This document shows positions 490 to 28,983 of a DNA stretch of 32,125 nucleotides, one piece after another; position 1 is the first letter of the stretch, and each line of letters opens with the position of its first letter. Below the pieces are notes generated by a model. It was not told the origin of the DNA, did no database searches, and saw only the letters and a list, made by a program, of their open reading frames with translations. Source of the DNA: a virus. Its lineage: Duplodnaviria > Heunggongvirae > Uroviricota > Caudoviricetes. A program made the position numbers and the translations under genes. The DNA lies in IMG/VR virus record IMGVR_UViG_2703718850_000013; one strand, 5' to 3'.

Positions 490-502
490 AGCATTTTTTA
501 AC

Positions 503-631
503 TCCATTAATGGAATGAGTTAATCCACTAATAGAGATTTTATTCCATTAATGGAGTGTTATATTCCAACATATATGGCTTGAAACCCGCATTCTACCGT
601 TGAAATTGTGAATTTTACTTCATTAATGGAA
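503..631. promoter_or_regulatory. cluster of three 12-bp palindromic sites (TCCATTAATGGA at 503-514 and 544-555; variant TCATTAATGGA at 620-630), operator-like
   Basis: Exact repeated dyad-symmetric sequence read directly from the intergenic region after the first ORF; a TCCACTAAT half-site also occurs at about 524-532. Confidence 0.4.
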
Positions 632-1776: not shown

Positions 1777-2520
1777 TCATTTTTTCTTTAGAGTTATGAA
1801 GTTATCAATTGGATAGTTATCATCATATATATCTTTTATGAAAGATGAAATCTTATTGTGAAGTGAAATTGCTTTTGACTGTATAACGAAAAGCTCACTA
1901 CTAGTTTGATCCCTCACACATTCATCGGCCTGTATAAGTGCAGGAACCTCAGAACTTGCAATATAGAAATCGATACTCAGTCCGTTATATTCATCAATAT
2001 TTAATTTAAGTTCAGCAATAATGTTTTTTGTGTATTCGCTTAAAGCATAATTAGTTCTATCAATAGATTTTAAGGAATTAATAACGGAGTAAGAAGTGAA
2101 GAATAAATCGGAAACAAGAGCATCTGTTTCCTTCATAAACTCATCATGTGAATCTTGGGGTATGGTCTCGTTTTTTAAATGATTGCGATATTTTTTGGAG
2201 AATGTCACTAATTGATGTTTTAAAATTAAGGTTGAAGTACGTACTTTATTAAGATCTTGATAAATTGCTTTCTCAATAACACCATATACTACATCATAAT
2301 GTTTTTGCGACAACCATTCAGGTGCTTTTAGGTATGCTTGGTAGGCTACCCATAGTGTACCTAATGTACCTACAGCACTACATAATGTTCCAATTAAAGT
2401 TACCCACTCCCATCCTTTCGAACCAGAAAATAATATTTTTACACCAACTAATATAGCAATTAGCAGCAGTAATAGTACGGTACTTAGTAGTATTAAATTA
2501 TATTTTTTAATATTAAGCAT
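1777..2520 (-). CDS. 2TM membrane protein, paralog of 3498..4199 (start re-chosen at internal ATG)
   Basis: N-terminus MLNIKKYN...VKILFSGSKGWEW parallels MNIKTIN...VKVLFAGSRGFEW of the 3498..4199 product; two hydrophobic helices then an about 180-aa helical soluble region. The track start at 2568 adds 16 residues absent from the paralog. Confidence 0.6.
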   Translation of the reverse strand: MLNIKKYNLILLSTVLLLLLIAILVGVKILFSGSKGWEWVTLIGTLCSAVGTLGTLWVAYQAYLKAPEWLSQKHYDVVYGVIEKAIYQDLNKVRTSTLILKHQLVTFSKKYRNHLKNETIPQDSHDEFMKETDALVSDLFFTSYSVINSLKSIDRTNYALSEYTKNIIAELKLNIDEYNGLSIDFYIASSEVPALIQADECVRDQTSSELFVIQSKAISLHNKISSFIKDIYDDNYPIDNFITLKKK

Positions 2521-2584
2521 GTTAATCTCATTTCTTAAATAAAAGACATAGATGTATATATGTAGCATTGATGGATATATATTC

Positions 2585-2638: not shown

Positions 2639-3460
2639 TTAATAACGGAAACTCCATGTTTTTCTACTCAAAGCTAACTTCTTATGGACAAGTAGAAATA
2701 CAAATATCTCATGGAGATATGGAACCAGAGGTTCTCTTATCCCTTTACTGTGCTCAATGTTGTCAATATCATCTTTAAATTTAGAAATTAGATAATAATA
2801 AGGCTGCAACATATCAATGATTTCAAACACAATATAAGGTGAAACGTTTATTACTTTCCAGGAAAGTATATACTCATCAATTTGGCTTAAAATCGCACCA
2901 TCAAGACCTCTATTCCAGGTGTAACCGTATGCTTTGTATTTGTCGGCCCATAAATTTAATTCTCTTTCTAGTTTTTGTTTTCTAGAATCAGTAATGTGTT
3001 TACGGAAGCAAGAATTAATTATTTCGTTCCACTGTGCTAACGGATCTTTGACTTCTTTTTTGCCTTTTACAATTTTATCAAGATTATAATATCTTGAAGC
3101 ATCAGCGAATTCAGAAAGCATTTCTAATATGAGGTTTTGCTGCCAGTTTAATTCCCACTCCAAATTGGGTAAATGGCTAGCACCATAGCTTGAACAGTTT
3201 TTATGAAGCTCCGCAATATTATGGCTGAATTTTTTAAGTGTACGGAAGTCTGGCTTCTCAAGATTATTTTCGATCATATGATTGAGTATGAAGATAATCT
3301 TAAAAAACCTTTCTATGCCAATTGATAATTGAAAGAAGCTGCTATAGAAGCTACCTTTATCATGTGCTCTACATTTCCGCACAGCAGTAAGCCCACCACC
3401 TATTGAGGTACTGGACAAATAAGACTCTACCATGAATTGATTAAATGACTCCCCAAGCAT
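2639..3460 (-). CDS. hypothetical cytoplasmic protein (273 aa), possible Abi/HEPN-like (weak)
   Basis: ORF with AAGGA Shine-Dalgarno 6 nt upstream of ATG at 3460; no TM segment; an R-x4-H motif (RKCRAH) near the N-terminus is the only HEPN-like hint. Confidence 0.55.
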   Translation of the reverse strand: MLGESFNQFMVESYLSSTSIGGGLTAVRKCRAHDKGSFYSSFFQLSIGIERFFKIIFILNHMIENNLEKPDFRTLKKFSHNIAELHKNCSSYGASHLPNLEWELNWQQNLILEMLSEFADASRYYNLDKIVKGKKEVKDPLAQWNEIINSCFRKHITDSRKQKLERELNLWADKYKAYGYTWNRGLDGAILSQIDEYILSWKVINVSPYIVFEIIDMLQPYYYLISKFKDDIDNIEHSKGIREPLVPYLHEIFVFLLVHKKLALSRKTWSFRY

Positions 3461-3497: not shown

Positions 3498-4199
3498 TTA
3501 GCTGAACGAATAATCAGTATCAATATTTGTTTCACATAGCTCGTACTGAAATATGGCAGCTAGCTCTCTTTTAACACTTTCAAGATTTTCTGTAGCTGCA
3601 ATTACGTCCTCATGCTTGGGGCAATTAATATGTTTGCATATGGTCAATAGATATATATATTGATTGTCTAAATATGACTGCCTTAACTCTAATATATTTT
3701 TAAATAAATTTTCAAGCCGTTCGCTTAACTTAATATCAAACCTGGCTAGCATTGACCTTGTCGTATATAGCTTAGCAAGTTCAGATAAATCACTTGTGGC
3801 CTTTTTATTAATTTCAGCAGCAACTTTAGATTTTATTTCATCTGTCAGTTCTTTATTATCCTGAACATATTTCCTGATGGAAGCACGAACTATACCATCA
3901 TTATATAAACGTGAATTTATTTCCCATAACTGCATCTCAAATTTCATAGCCAACTGATGTGAGGTAGAAAGGGATTTTAATTTTTTATTCTGAACGAACC
4001 AATTATTTGCTACAAAAGCAGCACAAAGAGCTGTAGACGCAATCACGATATTGCATAACGCACTTGTTAAATCAGCTGCGTTCCCCCATTCAAACCCCCT
4101 GCTACCAGCGAATAGAACCTTAACGAGTACTAAGACTGCTAAAAACAGAAGTACTGCAACAATGCCGACAAGAGTAGAGTTTATAGTTTTTATATTCAT
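3498..4199 (-). CDS. 2TM membrane protein, paralog of 1777..2520
   Basis: Two N-terminal hydrophobic helices then a helical soluble domain; its ATG overlaps the upstream gene's TGA (ATGA at 4196-4199), implying coupling. Confidence 0.6.
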   Translation of the reverse strand: MNIKTINSTLVGIVAVLLFLAVLVLVKVLFAGSRGFEWGNAADLTSALCNIVIASTALCAAFVANNWFVQNKKLKSLSTSHQLAMKFEMQLWEINSRLYNDGIVRASIRKYVQDNKELTDEIKSKVAAEINKKATSDLSELAKLYTTRSMLARFDIKLSERLENLFKNILELRQSYLDNQYIYLLTICKHINCPKHEDVIAATENLESVKRELAAIFQYELCETNIDTDYSFS

Positions 4200-4747
4200 A
4201 ATTTATCAGCTATGTTAACTTCACTATAGAGCAAGCCTTTCAATTTCATCAAAGCTTCCCAAATTTCAGTTGGCTTACCGCTACAATTTCTAAGTAATAT
4301 TTCATCGTTTTCTTGTTTACTCAATGATGAATCATAAAACCGTGCTCCCAATTCTTCAAAATCATTTATAGCATTAGTAACCGTCCAAATCGCATCGTGA
4401 ATTTGTGGTGTCATGTATAATGTATAATCGAGAAGGAAGTCACTTGCTTTACTTTTAATTAAATCCTGTTTATAAAGCATAATTTGATCTAAAAGATCAC
4501 CATCATCATAAAAATTAAAATTTTCTGGAAGATTCAAAGAATTAATAAACTGAATGAAAGGTTTAATAGTTTGCTTTTTTTCTTTTAATTCATCTTCGAG
4601 TATTTTGAATAAAAGTTGTTTTTTTAGTTTTTCGTTCTCATATTTTTTAGTGATTAATTGGCTTGCCAATGTTACACCCGCAGCTATTAATGCACCGCCT
4701 AAAGTACCACCGACTGCAATGAGTTGTGTAATGGTTTCAGCTTCCAT
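4196..4747 (-). CDS. single-pass membrane protein (first gene of the putative four-gene operon; start re-chosen)
   Basis: One N-terminal TM helix (ITQLIAVGGTLGGALIAAGVTLA) then an about 150-aa soluble domain. The track start at 4771 is TTG; the ATG at 4745-4747 (MEAETITQ) is used here. No strong SD, so the start is uncertain. Confidence 0.5.
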   Translation of the reverse strand: MEAETITQLIAVGGTLGGALIAAGVTLASQLITKKYENEKLKKQLLFKILEDELKEKKQTIKPFIQFINSLNLPENFNFYDDGDLLDQIMLYKQDLIKSKASDFLLDYTLYMTPQIHDAIWTVTNAINDFEELGARFYDSSLSKQENDEILLRNCSGKPTEIWEALMKLKGLLYSEVNIADKL

Positions 4748-4818
4748 TTTTTTAGAAATCCAATATATCAAAGTGAAAAATGAACTTTACCATAATAACC
4801 ATTCTGGCGTAAACTATT

Positions 4819-4880: not shown

Positions 4881-4896
4881 GAACAGTTGGACTATG

Positions 4897-5024
4897 TTCT
4901 TATGTTCTTATGTTCTTATGTTCTTATGTTCTTATGTTCTTATGTTCTTATGTTCTTATGTTCTTATGTTCTTATGTTCTTATGTTCTTATGTTCTTATG
5001 TTCTTATGTTCTTATGTTCTTATG
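4897..5024. repeat. perfect tandem array, 16 x TTCTTATG (CATAAGAA on the minus strand)
   Basis: 128 nt of uninterrupted 8-nt periodicity read directly; intergenic between the HNH gene stop (5053) and the start of the 4747 operon. Confidence 0.95.
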
Positions 5025-5052
5025 TCTATATTTCTCAACCTTTAGTTGAAAA

Positions 5053-5856
5053 TCATTTAGGATAACTAACACAAGTATGACCAGAAATTACCATCATAAA
5101 TTGATTATTCTTTAAACCTACAAAGGGAAATGAAGCATAATCAATATTAGCCGTTGTCATATTAAAATGAAGAGATTGATCATATTGAGTCATTTCAGTT
5201 GCATGAATAGGAAATGTTCCTTGCTCCTTCAGTGTAACCAAAAAAGATATTGGGAAAAAATGTAAGCAAGAACATATACTATGATGTCCATTATTGTAGA
5301 ATGTAACTGACTGAGCAGTAATTTGTTTTCTGAATGGATAAAACCAATAGTAAATATTATGAGTTGCCCCAATGTCTGGATTCCTGCCTAATACAAAATT
5401 TCTCAATGGAGTATAAAAAGGACTATCAACAATAGGCTTCATACAATCTTTTACTGAAGTTGCAGCCAGAAGGTGTCCAATCATTGCTCTTAGAAATTTA
5501 TCCGCATCAAATTTTAATGAAATATAATTTTTGTAAAAGAACTTACCACTAAAATAATCATTTAACTTTTCGATGAATTCAGTTGTAACACGGCCTATTT
5601 CTGCATCCATTGATCCTAAAATATTCGAGTTACAATTGTGACAAATGGTACGAAAAGTTGTCCCGCTTTTTGCTTTAATTGGTGGTACTCGAGTATTAGA
5701 GAAATACTCAGAAATCGTTTTTTGTAACATAGGTGAAGGTTTAGATGCACATTGCGGGGGAACATGGTCTTTTTTTAATTTGCCAAAATTACCACATATT
5801 ACACAATATCCATTAGCTATTTTTACATGGTCAATTCTTTCAGAGACAAATTTCAT
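5053..5856 (-). CDS. HNH-endonuclease-domain protein with about 200-aa C-terminal extension of unknown function
   Basis: N-terminal CVICG-x7-DHVPP ... TICHNCN matches the HNH zinc-finger/His-Me pattern (CxxCG...DH..P...CxxCN). Confidence 0.6.
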   Translation of the reverse strand: MKFVSERIDHVKIANGYCVICGNFGKLKKDHVPPQCASKPSPMLQKTISEYFSNTRVPPIKAKSGTTFRTICHNCNSNILGSMDAEIGRVTTEFIEKLNDYFSGKFFYKNYISLKFDADKFLRAMIGHLLAATSVKDCMKPIVDSPFYTPLRNFVLGRNPDIGATHNIYYWFYPFRKQITAQSVTFYNNGHHSICSCLHFFPISFLVTLKEQGTFPIHATEMTQYDQSLHFNMTTANIDYASFPFVGLKNNQFMMVISGHTCVSYPK

Positions 5857-6179
5857 TCTGCAATCTCAAAAGTTAACATCACCAAAATATAGAGCATTCA
5901 AACACAATGTTCAATATGATTTTACTCTAACCAGTGTGCTATTTTTTATGCAAACTTATACATGGACGAATACTCAAACTGCGATAATAAACTGAAAATA
6001 TCGATATAAGAATTGATTTTATGAGTAATCATCATTATAGCCTATACCATGTAGCATTAACACTTTACCACCAAATAGAACATACATATACTATTGATTA
6101 TCGACCTAGGGTAAGTTTATCAATTATGGTACGATAGAATCTAAATAATCTATAGTAGCAAGAGGCTTAGGGGGAGATA

Positions 6180-6854
6180 ATGGAGTGGAAGAAAGAGCTT
6201 AGAGCAAAGTTTGAAAGAGACGAACTTAGAAGATTAATTTCTAATGTAAACTGGATTATATTCAAACCTAAAATAAAAAAGCAATTAGAAATACTATCAA
6301 CCCAATTATCAGGAGAGCATATAAGATTTAATATAATTGATATGCAAGATGAACCAGATGGTTATGGTTTTGATTGCCTGACATTTCAGATCGCTGATCG
6401 TATGACTGGAAATATGCGGCAGGAAAAAACTACCGAAAGCATAAAGTTTAATCATCATTGGCAAAAAGGAGCCGCACTTTCAATTACATATAGTGCGACG
6501 GGGGCTGTGCATATAATTCTTTTTCCGTCTACTTCAGATGATTCATTAGCAACACATGATTCCTTGATTGTCCATCATTCATATAACGTTAAACACATAA
6601 CACCAAAAAAAATAGAGAAAGCAGTAAAGAATTTACTTCATTATCACCGTGTTACAGGTGTTTTACACAAGGCCGCATTAAAAGATTTAATTTTAATCCG
6701 CTTACTGAAAATTAAGATGTTTTTTATTCAGTATAACGACAAAGAGAACAAGTTTAGAAGAGTTACAGCATTATATATACCTACATTAAGTCTTATAGTT
6801 TCGTTGGCTGCCGCAGTAGCATCTATTCTGGCATTAGTATCTGTTAAATCATGA
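6180..6854 (+). CDS. tail-anchored membrane protein (224 aa), unknown function
   Basis: Strong SD (GGGGGAG) before the ATG; single C-terminal hydrophobic helix (LSLIVSLAAAVASILALVSV); the only plus-strand gene in the island, convergent with the nucleotidyltransferase gene. Confidence 0.55.
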   Translation: MEWKKELRAKFERDELRRLISNVNWIIFKPKIKKQLEILSTQLSGEHIRFNIIDMQDEPDGYGFDCLTFQIADRMTGNMRQEKTTESIKFNHHWQKGAALSITYSATGAVHIILFPSTSDDSLATHDSLIVHHSYNVKHITPKKIEKAVKNLLHYHRVTGVLHKAALKDLILIRLLKIKMFFIQYNDKENKFRRVTALYIPTLSLIVSLAAAVASILALVSVKS

Positions 6855-7132: not shown

Positions 7133-7909
7133 TTATTTTATGGGTAAAATTTTCTTTATTTCATTTTCGGCGGCAAAATGATTGTTTAACTGCTCATAAT
7201 ATTTTGACATCATAACTGAATTTTTTAGACGCTGAATCTTATCTTTTTTCCATTGTGCGAGATAATAGGAACCTGAAAGTTGTTCTACAGCAGAGTAAAA
7301 ATATTCTTTAAGGGTAGAGCACCAAAAATAGTTAAAGCTAACAATATCTTTTTCAAGTTGATACGACTCAAAGACATAACCTGCATTGGCATTCCAATAT
7401 TTCATTATGCGAATAAGAGGCTTAATTAAATTGTTATTATTTTTATTGCAATTAGTTAAATCAGTATTGAACGCATTGGGATCGGTATTCATCCAACGGT
7501 TCAAAAAATCCTGGTTGGAAGGGATTTGATAACCAAATAAAATATTATGAGATGCAGGGACAAGCTCGAAAGTAATATGATTAAGGTTCAATTGAATAGT
7601 AGGGTGGCTTTGCTTTATTTCAGATGTACGATAGTAATAATTTACAAAACCCCTTAGCTTGTTTAGGTAGGTCTGAGGCTGATATATTACATTTTTGAAT
7701 ACAACCATATAATCAACATCAGAAGAAGGATCATAGCTACGAGGAAGCATTGTATTACGTGAATATGAGCCAAATACAAAATGACTAACAAGTTCACCAG
7801 CAAAATAACCATTCAGTCTGTTTTTTATGGTTGCAATTGAATTCGTTATTGTAATATCTCTTTGATAAGCATTGCTTTTAATAGACTCAAGATAGGTACT
7901 GACTGTCAT
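7133..7909 (-). CDS. pol-beta-type nucleotidyltransferase, SMODS/CD-NTase-like
   Basis: FGSYSRNT...SDVDY (hG[GS]-x9-13-DxD) plus a later acidic residue (FELVP); AAGGAA SD 6 nt upstream; start lies 2 nt after the upstream gene's stop. Confidence 0.6.
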   Translation of the reverse strand: MTVSTYLESIKSNAYQRDITITNSIATIKNRLNGYFAGELVSHFVFGSYSRNTMLPRSYDPSSDVDYMVVFKNVIYQPQTYLNKLRGFVNYYYRTSEIKQSHPTIQLNLNHITFELVPASHNILFGYQIPSNQDFLNRWMNTDPNAFNTDLTNCNKNNNNLIKPLIRIMKYWNANAGYVFESYQLEKDIVSFNYFWCSTLKEYFYSAVEQLSGSYYLAQWKKDKIQRLKNSVMMSKYYEQLNNHFAAENEIKKILPIK

Positions 7910-7911
7910 GT

Positions 7912-8415
7912 TTATTCCTTGTCAATATTATACTTAGTAAAGCCTTGGTTAACATCTCTTTGAGTTTTCTCATAAGCCCACCGAGGAATATTTGGCGAAC
8001 TTGAATTAAGTTGATTGCGTCGATCAGAGTAACTCGTAAGTTTTTCAATCAAAGTTTTATCAGTAAAATCAAAATTAGAAGTCAATATTTCCCTAAATAT
8101 TCTAACTTCATTCTTTAATTTATTATATTCATTTGCTGCTGATTTATGAAGTGCAGCACGCTTACTTGGGTTAAGAGACGTATTTAATGCAGTTAGAATT
8201 GTAGCAGTTATGGAAATAGCTACAACAGCATTGGCTGTACTCTTGATTGCGGCAATACCACTCAAAGCGGTTAAGATTGCTAATGGTACACCGAACCACA
8301 GATTCAGCTTATCCCATCTATCAGAAACATTATAATGAGATTTAGAAGAGTACAGAGCGTCCTCTTCTATACGATGACACTCAGAAATGACTGTTTGGAT
8401 GAGCTTCTGATTCAT
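7912..8415 (-). CDS. 2TM membrane protein, SLATT-like effector candidate (start re-chosen)
   Basis: About 40-aa N-terminal region, two TM helices (LWFGVPLAILTALSGIAAI; AVVAISITATILTAL), helical C-terminal region; tightly coupled to the nucleotidyltransferase gene. ATG at 8413-8415 has a GGAG SD; the track start is a GTG two codons upstream. Confidence 0.55.
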   Translation of the reverse strand: MNQKLIQTVISECHRIEEDALYSSKSHYNVSDRWDKLNLWFGVPLAILTALSGIAAIKSTANAVVAISITATILTALNTSLNPSKRAALHKSAANEYNKLKNEVRIFREILTSNFDFTDKTLIEKLTSYSDRRNQLNSSSPNIPRWAYEKTQRDVNQGFTKYNIDKE

Positions 8416-8579
8416 AAACACTCCAACAAATCCGATTCCCTAACAGTATAACATGGTAGGGTTAATAAATACTATAGGTACTTCCCTCTGAATAGACACA
8501 ATCGGGAAGTTTCGCCGCGAACTATTTTTTTTGCATATTAAATATTTTAAATAACACAAACAAAACCTGGATAAACAAA

Positions 8580-28716: not shown

Positions 28717-28983
28717 ATGGTAGAATTAGTAATTGCAGGGATTGCAGTTTTTCTAACTTTTGTAGCATTAATCTGGACTATCATTCGTGATAATAAGACC
28801 GATGATGCAGAAATAGAAGCACGTCTTGCCTCTGTAGAAACACGACTTGCACTTGTAGAACAATCTGTTACTACATTACGAAGTGAGCATGAAGCTATGA
28901 AGATTACTCTTAAGTCAGTTGATGAATCAATCAGACGACTTGAAGTAGATATTGCACGTATTCTTGTGATACTTGAAAAATAA
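28717..28983 (+). CDS. small membrane protein with coiled coil (88 aa); lysis-associated candidate
   Basis: N-terminal TM helix (LVIAGIAVFLTFVALIWTII) followed by a heptad-like helical region. Confidence 0.4.
   Translation: MVELVIAGIAVFLTFVALIWTIIRDNKTDDAEIEARLASVETRLALVEQSVTTLRSEHEAMKITLKSVDESIRRLEVDIARILVILEK

What the first reader, a model, noticed from the sequence alone, without database searches (positions are those of the whole stretch)
5053..5856. HNH nuclease domain fused to an uncharacterised 200-aa domain
The N-terminal 65 residues carry a complete HNH pattern (CVICG...DHVPP...CHNCN), but the protein is far larger than the small HNH proteins that accompany terminases. It is on the opposite strand and about 2.7 kb from the terminase genes. 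It is more likely a defence or exclusion nuclease than a packaging factor.
Basis: partly seen in the sequence, partly recalled or inferred. Interest (0 to 1): 0.55.

Follow-up and report, generated by a model that had tools for sequence, protein, structure and literature searches.

The report
Solitary mobile HNH-like nuclease gene
This is a stand-alone, horizontally mobile gene for an HNH-type nuclease with an otherwise unrecognisable fold, carried as cargo in prophage hotspots and integron cassettes; it looks like an anti-phage defence gene, but this exact protein was tested against 24 phages in a published screen and gave no protection.

Summary
The ORF (5053-5856, minus strand, 267 aa) is real. 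Its CxxC...DH...CxxCN pattern is invariant or nearly so across 130 relatives of 20-50% identity. It is a diverged HNH_5-type His-Me finger, below Pfam's cut-off in this protein.

It is not a fusion. About 1,100 family clusters almost all keep the same ~270-aa single-unit architecture, and a confident AlphaFold model (pLDDT 90.8, pTM 0.90) matches nothing in the PDB or in the viral predicted-structure library.

It is not a packaging factor. It recurs as a solitary, AT-rich gene in four unrelated mobile contexts: beside terS in this phage lineage, in the P2 tail-gene (Z/fun) hotspot, in a lambdoid slot between the replication genes and Q, and in Vibrio/marine integron cassettes. An identical copy sits in both P2-like and lambdoid phages as a 1.04-kb module. 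87 E. coli genomes keep it without an intact terminase.

In the window it lies between the validated defence system DS-13 and a type I CBASS.

The exact protein (WP_001609855.1, "PDP1") was predicted defensive by DefensePredictor, cloned and challenged with 24 phages, and scored not defensive. Defence or exclusion remains the best guess (~0.4) but is unproven.

The parts
5053..5856 (-). Complete ORF, 267 aa. It is identical to RefSeq WP_001609855.1, construct 'PDP1' of the DefensePredictor study, and belongs to PHROG 21495.
   Evidence: (100% identity to the annotated CDS in strains 55989 and N61)
5587..5814 (-). Residues 15-90: Cys4 zinc site plus His-Me finger (HNH_5-like) module. It contains C18xxC21, strand 24-31 ending in D30-H31, a ~35-residue insertion, strand 67-72, helix 73-80 carrying C72xxC75-N76, and the invariant D84.
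5056..5586 (-). Residues 91-267: family-specific alpha/beta region with invariant H128 and P202 and near-invariant G127, W171 and P244. It has no recognisable sequence or fold relative and is always found together with the N-terminal module.
5886..5914 (-). Candidate sigma-70-like promoter (TTGAAC-17-TATATT), ending about 30 nt upstream of the ATG. This is a weak consensus match only; the number of such matches in the region is no higher than in shuffled sequence.
3498..4771 (-). Context, not part of the gene: a two-gene operon of membrane proteins, 99% identical to the experimentally validated defence system DS-13 (WP_000387046.1 plus WP_001022716.1).
7133..8421 (-). Context, not part of the gene: type I CBASS, with a SMODS cyclase at 7133-7909 and a SLATT 2TM effector at 7912-8421.

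Best explanation
The gene encodes a stand-alone metal-dependent nuclease of the His-Me finger (HNH_5-like) kind. A Cys4 zinc site holds a beta-beta-alpha catalytic core, with D30-H31 on the first strand and N76 on the helix. This core is packed into one globule with a family-specific ~180-residue region. I infer that this region targets or gates the nuclease. The gene travels as a self-contained ~1-kb module (upstream region, ORF, 3' hairpin). It lands in accessory-gene hotspots of unrelated temperate phages and in integron cassettes, so it is cargo (a 'moron'), not part of the packaging machinery. The most likely role is conflict between mobile elements: a defence or exclusion nuclease with a narrow target range, or one that needs a trigger absent from the 24-phage panel already tried. 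Shown here: the conserved catalytic set, the invariant architecture, the solitary mobile distribution, and the defence-island neighbourhood. Inferred: nuclease activity, gating by the C-terminal region, and the defence role.
For: Catalytic set: it is conserved across 130 relatives. 49 of 130 members hit Pfam HNH_5 at E<=0.01, best 1.9e-6, and no other family recurs. The only PDB sequence reached by the N-terminal profile is the HNH endonuclease 4h9d, with both motif halves in register. The order of secondary-structure elements in the model is beta-beta-alpha.
Architecture: there are 1,125 cluster representatives, almost all 255-300 aa, matched across both halves.
Cargo behaviour: the P2 FI/G hotspot, which the literature names as the Z/fun defence hotspot (PMC13586616; bioRxiv 10.1101/2024.10.15.618418). 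A lambdoid slot where a reference phage carries different cargo. attC-flanked integron cassettes in three genomes. Positions beside integrases or transposases.
Mobility: a 100% identical protein occurs in P2-like and lambdoid phages, and only 1.04 kb of DNA is shared.
Composition: the gene is 9.4 GC points below its flanks, and lower in 56 of 61 loci.
No conserved partner gene.
Window neighbours: DS-13 and CBASS.
DefensePredictor log-odds are 7.5 for this protein and 8.4 for a homologue.
Integron cassettes are a proven reservoir of single-gene defence systems, including two with distant His-Me finger similarity (10.1101/2024.07.02.601686).
Against: The exact protein was cloned with its native promoter on a low-copy plasmid in E. 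coli MG1655. It gave no protection against 24 diverse coliphages: defensive = FALSE and no DS name (PMC13092281 Tables S6 and S11). There is no PADLOC match. Three fold searches did not retrieve any HNH structure, so the fold assignment rests on motif, weak profile hits and topology. The window protein itself scores 14.4 bits against the HNH_5 cut-off of 27.5. Nuclease activity has never been shown. In six related phages the gene sits directly beside terS, which could also hint at a phage-cycle role.
Confidence: 0.42

Rival explanations
1. It is a selfish free-standing homing-type endonuclease. The HNH cuts a site in genomes that lack the gene, and repair copies the gene in. This would explain the sporadic distribution without any benefit to the host.
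For: The N-terminal HNH plus a larger C-terminal part resembles the layout of free-standing HNH homing endonucleases (my own knowledge). The distribution is sporadic, between conserved phage genes, and beside terS in six related phages. There was no defence phenotype.
Against: The identical 1.04-kb module sits in P2-like and lambdoid phages whose flanks share no homology, so that transfer was not homology-driven homing. The same hotspots hold unrelated cargo in other phages. Three copies are attC-bounded integron cassettes. No NUMOD or HTH-type DNA-binding module was found. The model is one compact globule rather than an extended modular protein. No target site was identified.
Confidence: 0.17
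2. It is a phage life-cycle nuclease. It could be a terminase-associated HNH or a branch-resolving enzyme like T4 endonuclease VII that clears DNA for packaging or recombination.
For: The gene is immediately adjacent to terS in L008 and L012-L016, although the terminase there is only 42-48% identical. There are weak Endonuclease_7 hits: E 0.29 for this protein, and 4 of 130 members at E<=0.01. The Cys4 + DH + CxxCN layout matches the T4 endonuclease VII pattern as I recall it.
Against: The gene is antisense to the terminase genes. In the window it is separated from them by a CBASS and another ORF. It is kept at 100% protein identity in genomes with only a 452-nt terminase stub. It is present in only a subset of P2-like and lambdoid phages, at accessory hotspots, and in integron cassettes. 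The terminase here is of the GpA type, with its own nuclease domain.
Confidence: 0.1
3. It is not a nuclease. The Cys4/His pattern would then be a structural zinc (treble-clef) module in a protein with another role, for example a regulator, an anti-defence factor or a binding protein.
For: No fold search returned an HNH. The window protein is below Pfam's threshold. Database names are only 'metal-binding protein' and 'chaperonin'. The clone is viable and shows no phenotype.
Against: The catalytic positions are invariant or nearly so, not only the zinc ligands: H31 and N76 are invariant and D30 is conserved in at least 90%. D84 and H128 are also invariant. Hits to HNH_5 recur in 49 of 130 members.
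Confidence: 0.12
4. It is a defence or exclusion component that works only together with neighbouring genes, so testing it alone was bound to fail.
For: Four transcription units of this island were cloned separately and only DS-13 worked. The divergent neighbour at 6180-6854 is also unexplained.
Against: No neighbour is conserved across contexts. The module that moves between phages contains this gene only. The integron cassettes are single-gene.
Confidence: 0.07

Closest known systems
HNH_5 / canonical HNH His-Me finger nucleases (Pfam PF14279; solved example 4h9d)
   Same: Both have CxxC before the first strand, DH at its end, and CxxCN at the start of the helix. HNH_5 hits recur across the family, and the motif halves align in register with 4h9d.
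   Different: About 25-35 residues are inserted between the two halves. The window protein is below the Pfam cut-off (14.4 against 27.5 bits). The motif is embedded in a ~270-aa globule with no known fold relative.
T4 endonuclease VII / R.Hpy99I (Pfam Endonuclease_7)
   Same: Both have a Cys4 zinc site with an Asp-His pair and an Asn directly after the second CxxC, the 'HNN' variant (from my own knowledge of endonuclease VII). Weak profile hits were found.
   Different: No significant sequence or structural match was found. There is no evidence of junction-resolving activity. The gene is accessory rather than a core phage gene.
Terminase-associated HNH proteins (HK97 gp74 type)
   Same: Both are HNH-type and lie near the terminase genes. 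In related phages this gene lies directly beside terS.
   Different: It is on the opposite strand and about twice the size. It is found in tail-gene hotspots, in the lambdoid slot between the replication genes and Q, and in integrons. It is retained where the terminase has been lost.
P2 accessory-hotspot morons (Z/fun, old, tin) and other phage-hotspot defence cargo
   Same: The position is the same: between the tail-fibre and sheath genes of P2-like phages (PMC13586616; 10.1101/2024.10.15.618418). Like them it is solitary, AT-rich and antisense to its neighbours.
   Different: There is no sequence relationship, and no protective phenotype has been shown so far.
Sirona and Nemetona, single-gene integron-cassette defence systems of V. 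cholerae described as distantly related to His-Me finger nucleases (bioRxiv 10.1101/2024.07.02.601686)
   Same: They are single-gene integron cassettes with distant HNH similarity, and Sirona is reported in 34 genera of Pseudomonadota. This family also occurs as Vibrio integron cassettes.
   Different: Homology was not tested, because their sequences or locus tags could not be obtained. V. cholerae was not among the genome hits. They are described as resembling NinG or a type II restriction domain, whereas this family hits HNH_5 and Endonuclease_7.
DefensePredictor candidate PDP1 (PMC13092281)
   Same: It is the same protein, WP_001609855.1.
   Different: There is nothing to distinguish. It is listed there only in supplementary tables, as predicted and not validated, with no domain or family analysis.

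Membership tests
His-Me finger / HNH nucleases (Pfam HNH_5, PF14279) | Catalytic His at the end of the first beta strand (usually D/E-H) | tested here: met
   H31 is invariant and D30 is conserved in at least 90% of 130 diverse relatives. The model places them at the end of strand 24-31.
His-Me finger / HNH nucleases (Pfam HNH_5, PF14279) | Metal-binding Asn/His on the helix, and Cys4 zinc site (CxxC ... CxxC) | tested here: met
   C72, C75 and N76 are invariant; C18 and C21 are conserved in at least 90%. Helix 73-80 starts at the second CxxC.
His-Me finger / HNH nucleases (Pfam HNH_5, PF14279) | Beta-beta-alpha-metal fold recognisable in three dimensions | tested here: inconclusive
His-Me finger / HNH nucleases (Pfam HNH_5, PF14279) | Profile score at or above Pfam's gathering threshold | tested here: not met
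   The window protein scores 14.4 bits against a cut-off of 27.5, E 0.036. Relatives reach E 1.9e-6, and 49 of 130 hit at E<=0.01. The link is therefore transitive, not direct.
His-Me finger / HNH nucleases (Pfam HNH_5, PF14279) | Metal-dependent nuclease activity | not testable with these tools
   This needs a biochemical assay.
Terminase-associated HNH (HK97 gp74 type) | Small protein co-oriented with, and adjacent to, the terminase and portal genes, and conserved wherever that packaging module occurs | tested here: not met
   It is 267 aa and antisense, 2.7 kb from terS in the window. It is retained alongside a 452-nt terminase stub in 87 genomes. It occurs in P2 tail-gene, lambdoid and integron contexts. 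Adjacency to terS is seen only in L008 and L012-L016, and there it is divergent.
Free-standing HNH homing endonuclease | Recognisable DNA-binding modules, and spread between homologous genomes at a defined target site | tested here: not met
   No NUMOD or HTH domains were found. The identical module lies in non-homologous flanks. No target site was identified, and cleavage specificity itself cannot be tested here.
Known anti-phage defence systems | Match to a curated defence-protein model | tested here: not met
   PADLOC-DB v2.0.0 gives no hit at E<=10.
Known anti-phage defence systems | Location in defence islands or mobile-element hotspots | tested here: met
   The gene lies between DS-13 and a type I CBASS. 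Relatives lie in the P2 Z/fun hotspot, a lambdoid variable slot and integron cassettes.
Known anti-phage defence systems | Protection against phage when expressed | not testable with these tools
   Others tested it. Construct PDP1, with native promoter on pCV1 in MG1655 against 24 phages, is listed as defensive = FALSE (PMC13092281 Tables S6 and S11).
Type IV (modification-dependent) restriction enzymes of the McrA type | HNH joined to a recognisable modified-DNA-binding domain (SRA, EVE or similar) | tested here: not met
   The C-terminal region has no Pfam match and no fold neighbour. A novel reader domain cannot be excluded.

The most novel reading that the evidence does not exclude
The family is a new single-protein immune or exclusion nuclease in which a previously unseen ~180-residue fold senses or selects the target for a diverged HNH core. 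It would spread as a 1-kb plug-in module between unrelated temperate phages and integrons. It would act on targets that the published 24-phage screen did not include, such as competing temperate phages, satellites, plasmids or DNA with particular modifications.
Probability: 0.35. Interest if true: 0.6.

Novelty: new variant of a known kind. Interest (0 to 1): 0.4.

Why it matters
If it is active, this is a widespread family: more than 1,100 clusters at 50% identity, from enterobacteria to cyanobacteria. It has no Pfam model and no structural relative, and it moves between P2-like phages, lambdoid phages and integrons as a minimal module. Its target would define a new specificity class among solitary HNH nucleases and could explain a 'false positive' of defence-prediction tools. 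If it is inactive in defence, it is a useful counter-example: a gene with every contextual hallmark of immunity (hotspots, AT-richness, defence neighbours, a high machine-learning score) that does something else. On present evidence it is an uncharacterised but already flagged candidate, so its importance is moderate.

Tried and rejected
1. Direct family assignment. Pfam, NCBIfam, PADLOC and PDB-sequence searches of the single protein gave only sub-threshold HNH_5 and Endonuclease_7 hits. The NCBIfam hits (a Clo7bot peptide and a trehalose synthase) and the Hel308 hits are noise.
2. Full-length family profile against PDB sequences: no hit at E<=10.
4. Checking zinc-site and active-site geometry in the model: the coordinates are not exposed.
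5. Looking for extra domains in the longer family members: none found, so these are probably mis-called starts. A single weak EAD2 hit (E 0.009) was not reproduced among the ten longer members scanned.
6. Looking for a conserved partner gene such as an immunity protein, methyltransferase or antitoxin: none found in any context. The 224-aa ORFs next to the gene in different loci are not homologous.
7. Promoter and terminator scans: no more matches than in shuffled sequence.
8. Linking the family to Sirona or Nemetona: no locus tags or sequences are in the held text or supplement.
10. The NCBI product name 'chaperonin' was rejected as an annotation artefact, because nothing in the sequence or model supports it.

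Full report
THE OBSERVATION

The ORF at 5053-5856 on the minus strand is real: ATG start, 267 aa. It carries C18-x-x-C21, D30-H31-V-P-P and C72-H-N-C75-N76. This is not a chance pattern.
- In 39 homologues of 36-82% identity all of these residues are invariant.
- In 130 relatives of about 20-50% identity, drawn from an exhaustive profile search, H31, C72, C75 and N76 remain invariant. C18, C21 and D30 are kept in at least 90%. D84, H128 and P202 are also invariant.
- One correction: the motif spans residues 18-76, not the first 65.

IS IT AN HNH?

The window protein itself gives only sub-threshold hits: HNH_5 at E 0.036 (14.4 bits against a cut-off of 27.5) and Endonuclease_7 at E 0.29. The link holds at family level.
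- 25 of 39 close members hit HNH_5 (at E<=1), and 49 of 130 diverse members do so at E<=0.01, best 1.9e-6. No other Pfam family recurs.
- A profile of the N-terminal 90 residues touches one sequence of 177,635 in the PDB. That sequence is the HNH endonuclease 4h9d. The E-value of 3.6 is not significant, but both motif halves are in register.
- The AlphaFold model (39-sequence alignment, mean pLDDT 90.8, pTM 0.90) puts D30-H31 at the end of strand 24-31. Strand 67-72 and helix 73-80, which starts at the second CxxC, follow. This is the beta-beta-alpha order of a His-Me finger, with ~35 residues inserted between the strands.

I conclude that this is a diverged HNH_5-type His-Me finger with a complete catalytic set. 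Nuclease activity is inferred, not shown.

IS IT A FUSION?

No. The exhaustive HMMER search found 1,125 cluster representatives at E<=0.001, and 577 at E<=1e-10. Nearly all are 255-300 aa and are matched from about profile position 15 to beyond 215. The few longer members carry no extra domain. The model is one compact globule. The C-terminal ~180 residues have no Pfam, NCBIfam, PADLOC, PDB-sequence or fold relative. The whole family is PHROG 21495, function unknown. NCBI's product name 'chaperonin' has no support.

WHERE THE GENE LIVES

The window is a ~36-kb prophage-like element with a large serine recombinase, inserted between yggS and yggR. The gene lies in a minus-strand cargo block of 31-34% GC, next to structural genes of 38-43% GC. 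Relatives turn up in at least four unrelated mobile settings, and always alone.
1. Directly divergent from terS in related phages whose terminase is only 42-48% identical (L008, L012-L016).
2. Between the sheath gene FI and the tail-fibre gene G of P2-like phages (pro147, L024, L033, L037, L038, L040). The literature names this the Z/fun accessory and defence hotspot (PMC13586616; 10.1101/2024.10.15.618418).
3. In Rac-like lambdoid prophages, in the slot between the replication genes and Q. A reference phage carries an S8 peptidase and an AAA ATPase there instead.
4. As a single-gene integron cassette flanked by attC sites, in a marine metagenome contig, in V. mimicus and in V. barjaei.

Other copies sit beside integrases, a satellite-like module or transposases. 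The gene averages 9.4 GC points below its flanks, and is lower in 56 of 61 loci. It is usually antisense to both neighbours. The range is mostly Gammaproteobacteria, and it reaches Betaproteobacteria and cyanobacteria.

MOBILITY

The protein is 100% identical in P2-like loci (L024, L033) and lambdoid loci (L020-L031). The DNA they share is only 1,033-1,042 bp at 99.4-99.7% identity: ~145 bp upstream, the ORF and ~80 bp downstream. It is bounded by similar palindromes, GTCCGCTTTGAGCGAAAAGCAGAC and GTCCGCTGTTGGCACAAAGCGGAC. The 3' palindrome lies ~55 nt after the stop codon in every copy of that subfamily. Because the flanks are unrelated, this transfer was not homology-driven homing.

PACKAGING ROLE

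This is unlikely. Of 88 complete E. coli genomes that match the terminase, 87 keep only its first 452 nt (it is followed by IS100 in strain 55989). About 89 genomes keep the region around the gene at 99% identity or more, and the protein is 100% identical in the two examined. Clonal descent weakens this argument, but together with the hotspot and integron contexts it is persuasive. The terminase is also of the GpA type, with its own nuclease domain.

DEFENCE ROLE

The context says yes.
- The two genes just downstream (3498-4771) are 99% identical to WP_000387046.1 and WP_001022716.1, the validated system DS-13.
- A type I CBASS lies at 7133-8421 (PADLOC E 3.5e-113 and 2.2e-70).
- The window protein is exactly WP_001609855.1. 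DefensePredictor scored it as a 'predicted novel defense gene', log-odds 7.5, and scored a 268-aa homologue at 8.4.

The experiment says not yet. [quoted passage not shown] Table S6 lists defensive = FALSE, and no DS name was given. Its neighbours at 2639-3460 (COAT) and 6180-6854 (VANC) were also tested and were negative. The clone is viable, so at native expression the protein does not attack K-12 DNA. A negative result on one panel in one host is not decisive, since 55% of that study's candidates failed. It does lower my estimate that this is a defence gene to about 0.4.

MECHANISM I COMMIT TO

This is a solitary His-Me finger nuclease whose family-specific C-terminal region restricts when or on what it cuts. 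It is carried as a lysogen-expressed module for conflict between mobile elements, and its targets lie outside the tested panel. Rivals are a selfish homing-type nuclease (0.17), a non-catalytic zinc protein (0.12), a phage-cycle nuclease (0.10) and a component that needs its neighbours (0.07).

A lead I could not close concerns Sirona and Nemetona. These are validated single-gene integron-cassette defence systems of V. cholerae, described as distantly His-Me-finger-like (10.1101/2024.07.02.601686). They might be relatives, but their sequences were not obtainable.

VERDICT

'Not a packaging HNH' is supported. 'Defence nuclease' is plausible, was already proposed by others, and has so far been tested with a negative result. 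The family is an uncharacterised variant of a known kind, a solitary HNH nuclease carried as mobile cargo, with an orphan fold. Interest is moderate.

Noticed in passing
window 4893-5025: A perfect 8-bp tandem repeat, (TATGTTCT) x 16.6, lies in the 281-nt gap between the stop codon of the HNH-like gene and the start of the DS-13 operon. The copy number is hypervariable between otherwise >99.7% identical loci: 16.6 here, 5.6 in E. coli N61 and none detectable in strain 55989. The 185-nt gap in the ECOR contig used to validate DS-13 implies about 1.6 copies there. It may be a contingency locus affecting DS-13 expression.
   Followed up: partly
window 3498-4771 (minus strand): This two-gene operon of predicted membrane proteins is 99% identical to the experimentally validated defence system DS-13 (WP_000387046.1 plus WP_001022716.1; PMC13092281 Tables S6 and S8).
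   Followed up: yes
window 7133-8421 (minus strand): A complete type I CBASS: a SMODS cyclase (PADLOC E 3.5e-113) and a SLATT 2TM effector (E 2.2e-70). It sits between the HNH-like gene and the terminase genes.
   Followed up: yes
window 1777-2568, 2639-3460 and 6180-6854: Three more cargo genes with no recognisable domains all have high DefensePredictor scores (10.7, 12.4 and 9.5). The second (COAT) and third (VANC) were cloned and tested, and were not protective. The first does not appear in the table of tested units.
   Followed up: partly
whole window; E. coli N61 NZ_AP028880.1 792.6-828.8 kb: The element is a ~36-kb prophage-like island between yggS and yggR. It has a large serine recombinase, a GpA-type terminase, and portal, capsid and tail genes, but no annotated repressor, replication or lysis module. 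Only 1 of 5,426 complete E. coli genomes has the intact structural region. 87 keep the cargo block plus a terminase stub cut at nt 452, which in strain 55989 is followed by IS100.
   Followed up: partly
L021 5857-5880 and 6865-6888 (also L001, L024, L037 and others): The 1.04-kb module shared by P2-like and lambdoid phages is bounded by two similar palindromes (GTCCGC...GCGGAC/GCAGAC). The 3' one folds at -13.2 kcal/mol (z -2.7) and marks exactly where the homology ends. It could be a terminator without a U-tract or a recombination site.
   Followed up: partly
L060 6913-7650 (Citrobacter): In Citrobacter the 82%-identical homologue has a divergently transcribed 245-aa neighbour with a canonical Pfam HNH domain (PF01844). 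This pairing is not seen in the other contexts.
   Followed up: no
window 5053-5856; public annotation: NCBI and UniRef name this family 'chaperonin', and some records say 'metal-binding protein'. Nothing in the sequence, profile or model supports a chaperonin, so the name looks like a propagated annotation error.
   Followed up: partly
window 498-568 and 28814-28860: Two further short imperfect tandem arrays, of 20-21-nt units with about 3 and about 2 copies. The first lies just after the ORF that ends at 489.
   Followed up: no
L063 4748-8141 (phage vB_EcoS-683R6): The lambdoid slot that holds the HNH-like gene in L021 carries an S8-family peptidase plus an FtsH-like AAA ATPase pair in this reference phage. 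This may be another swappable defence cargo.
   Followed up: no
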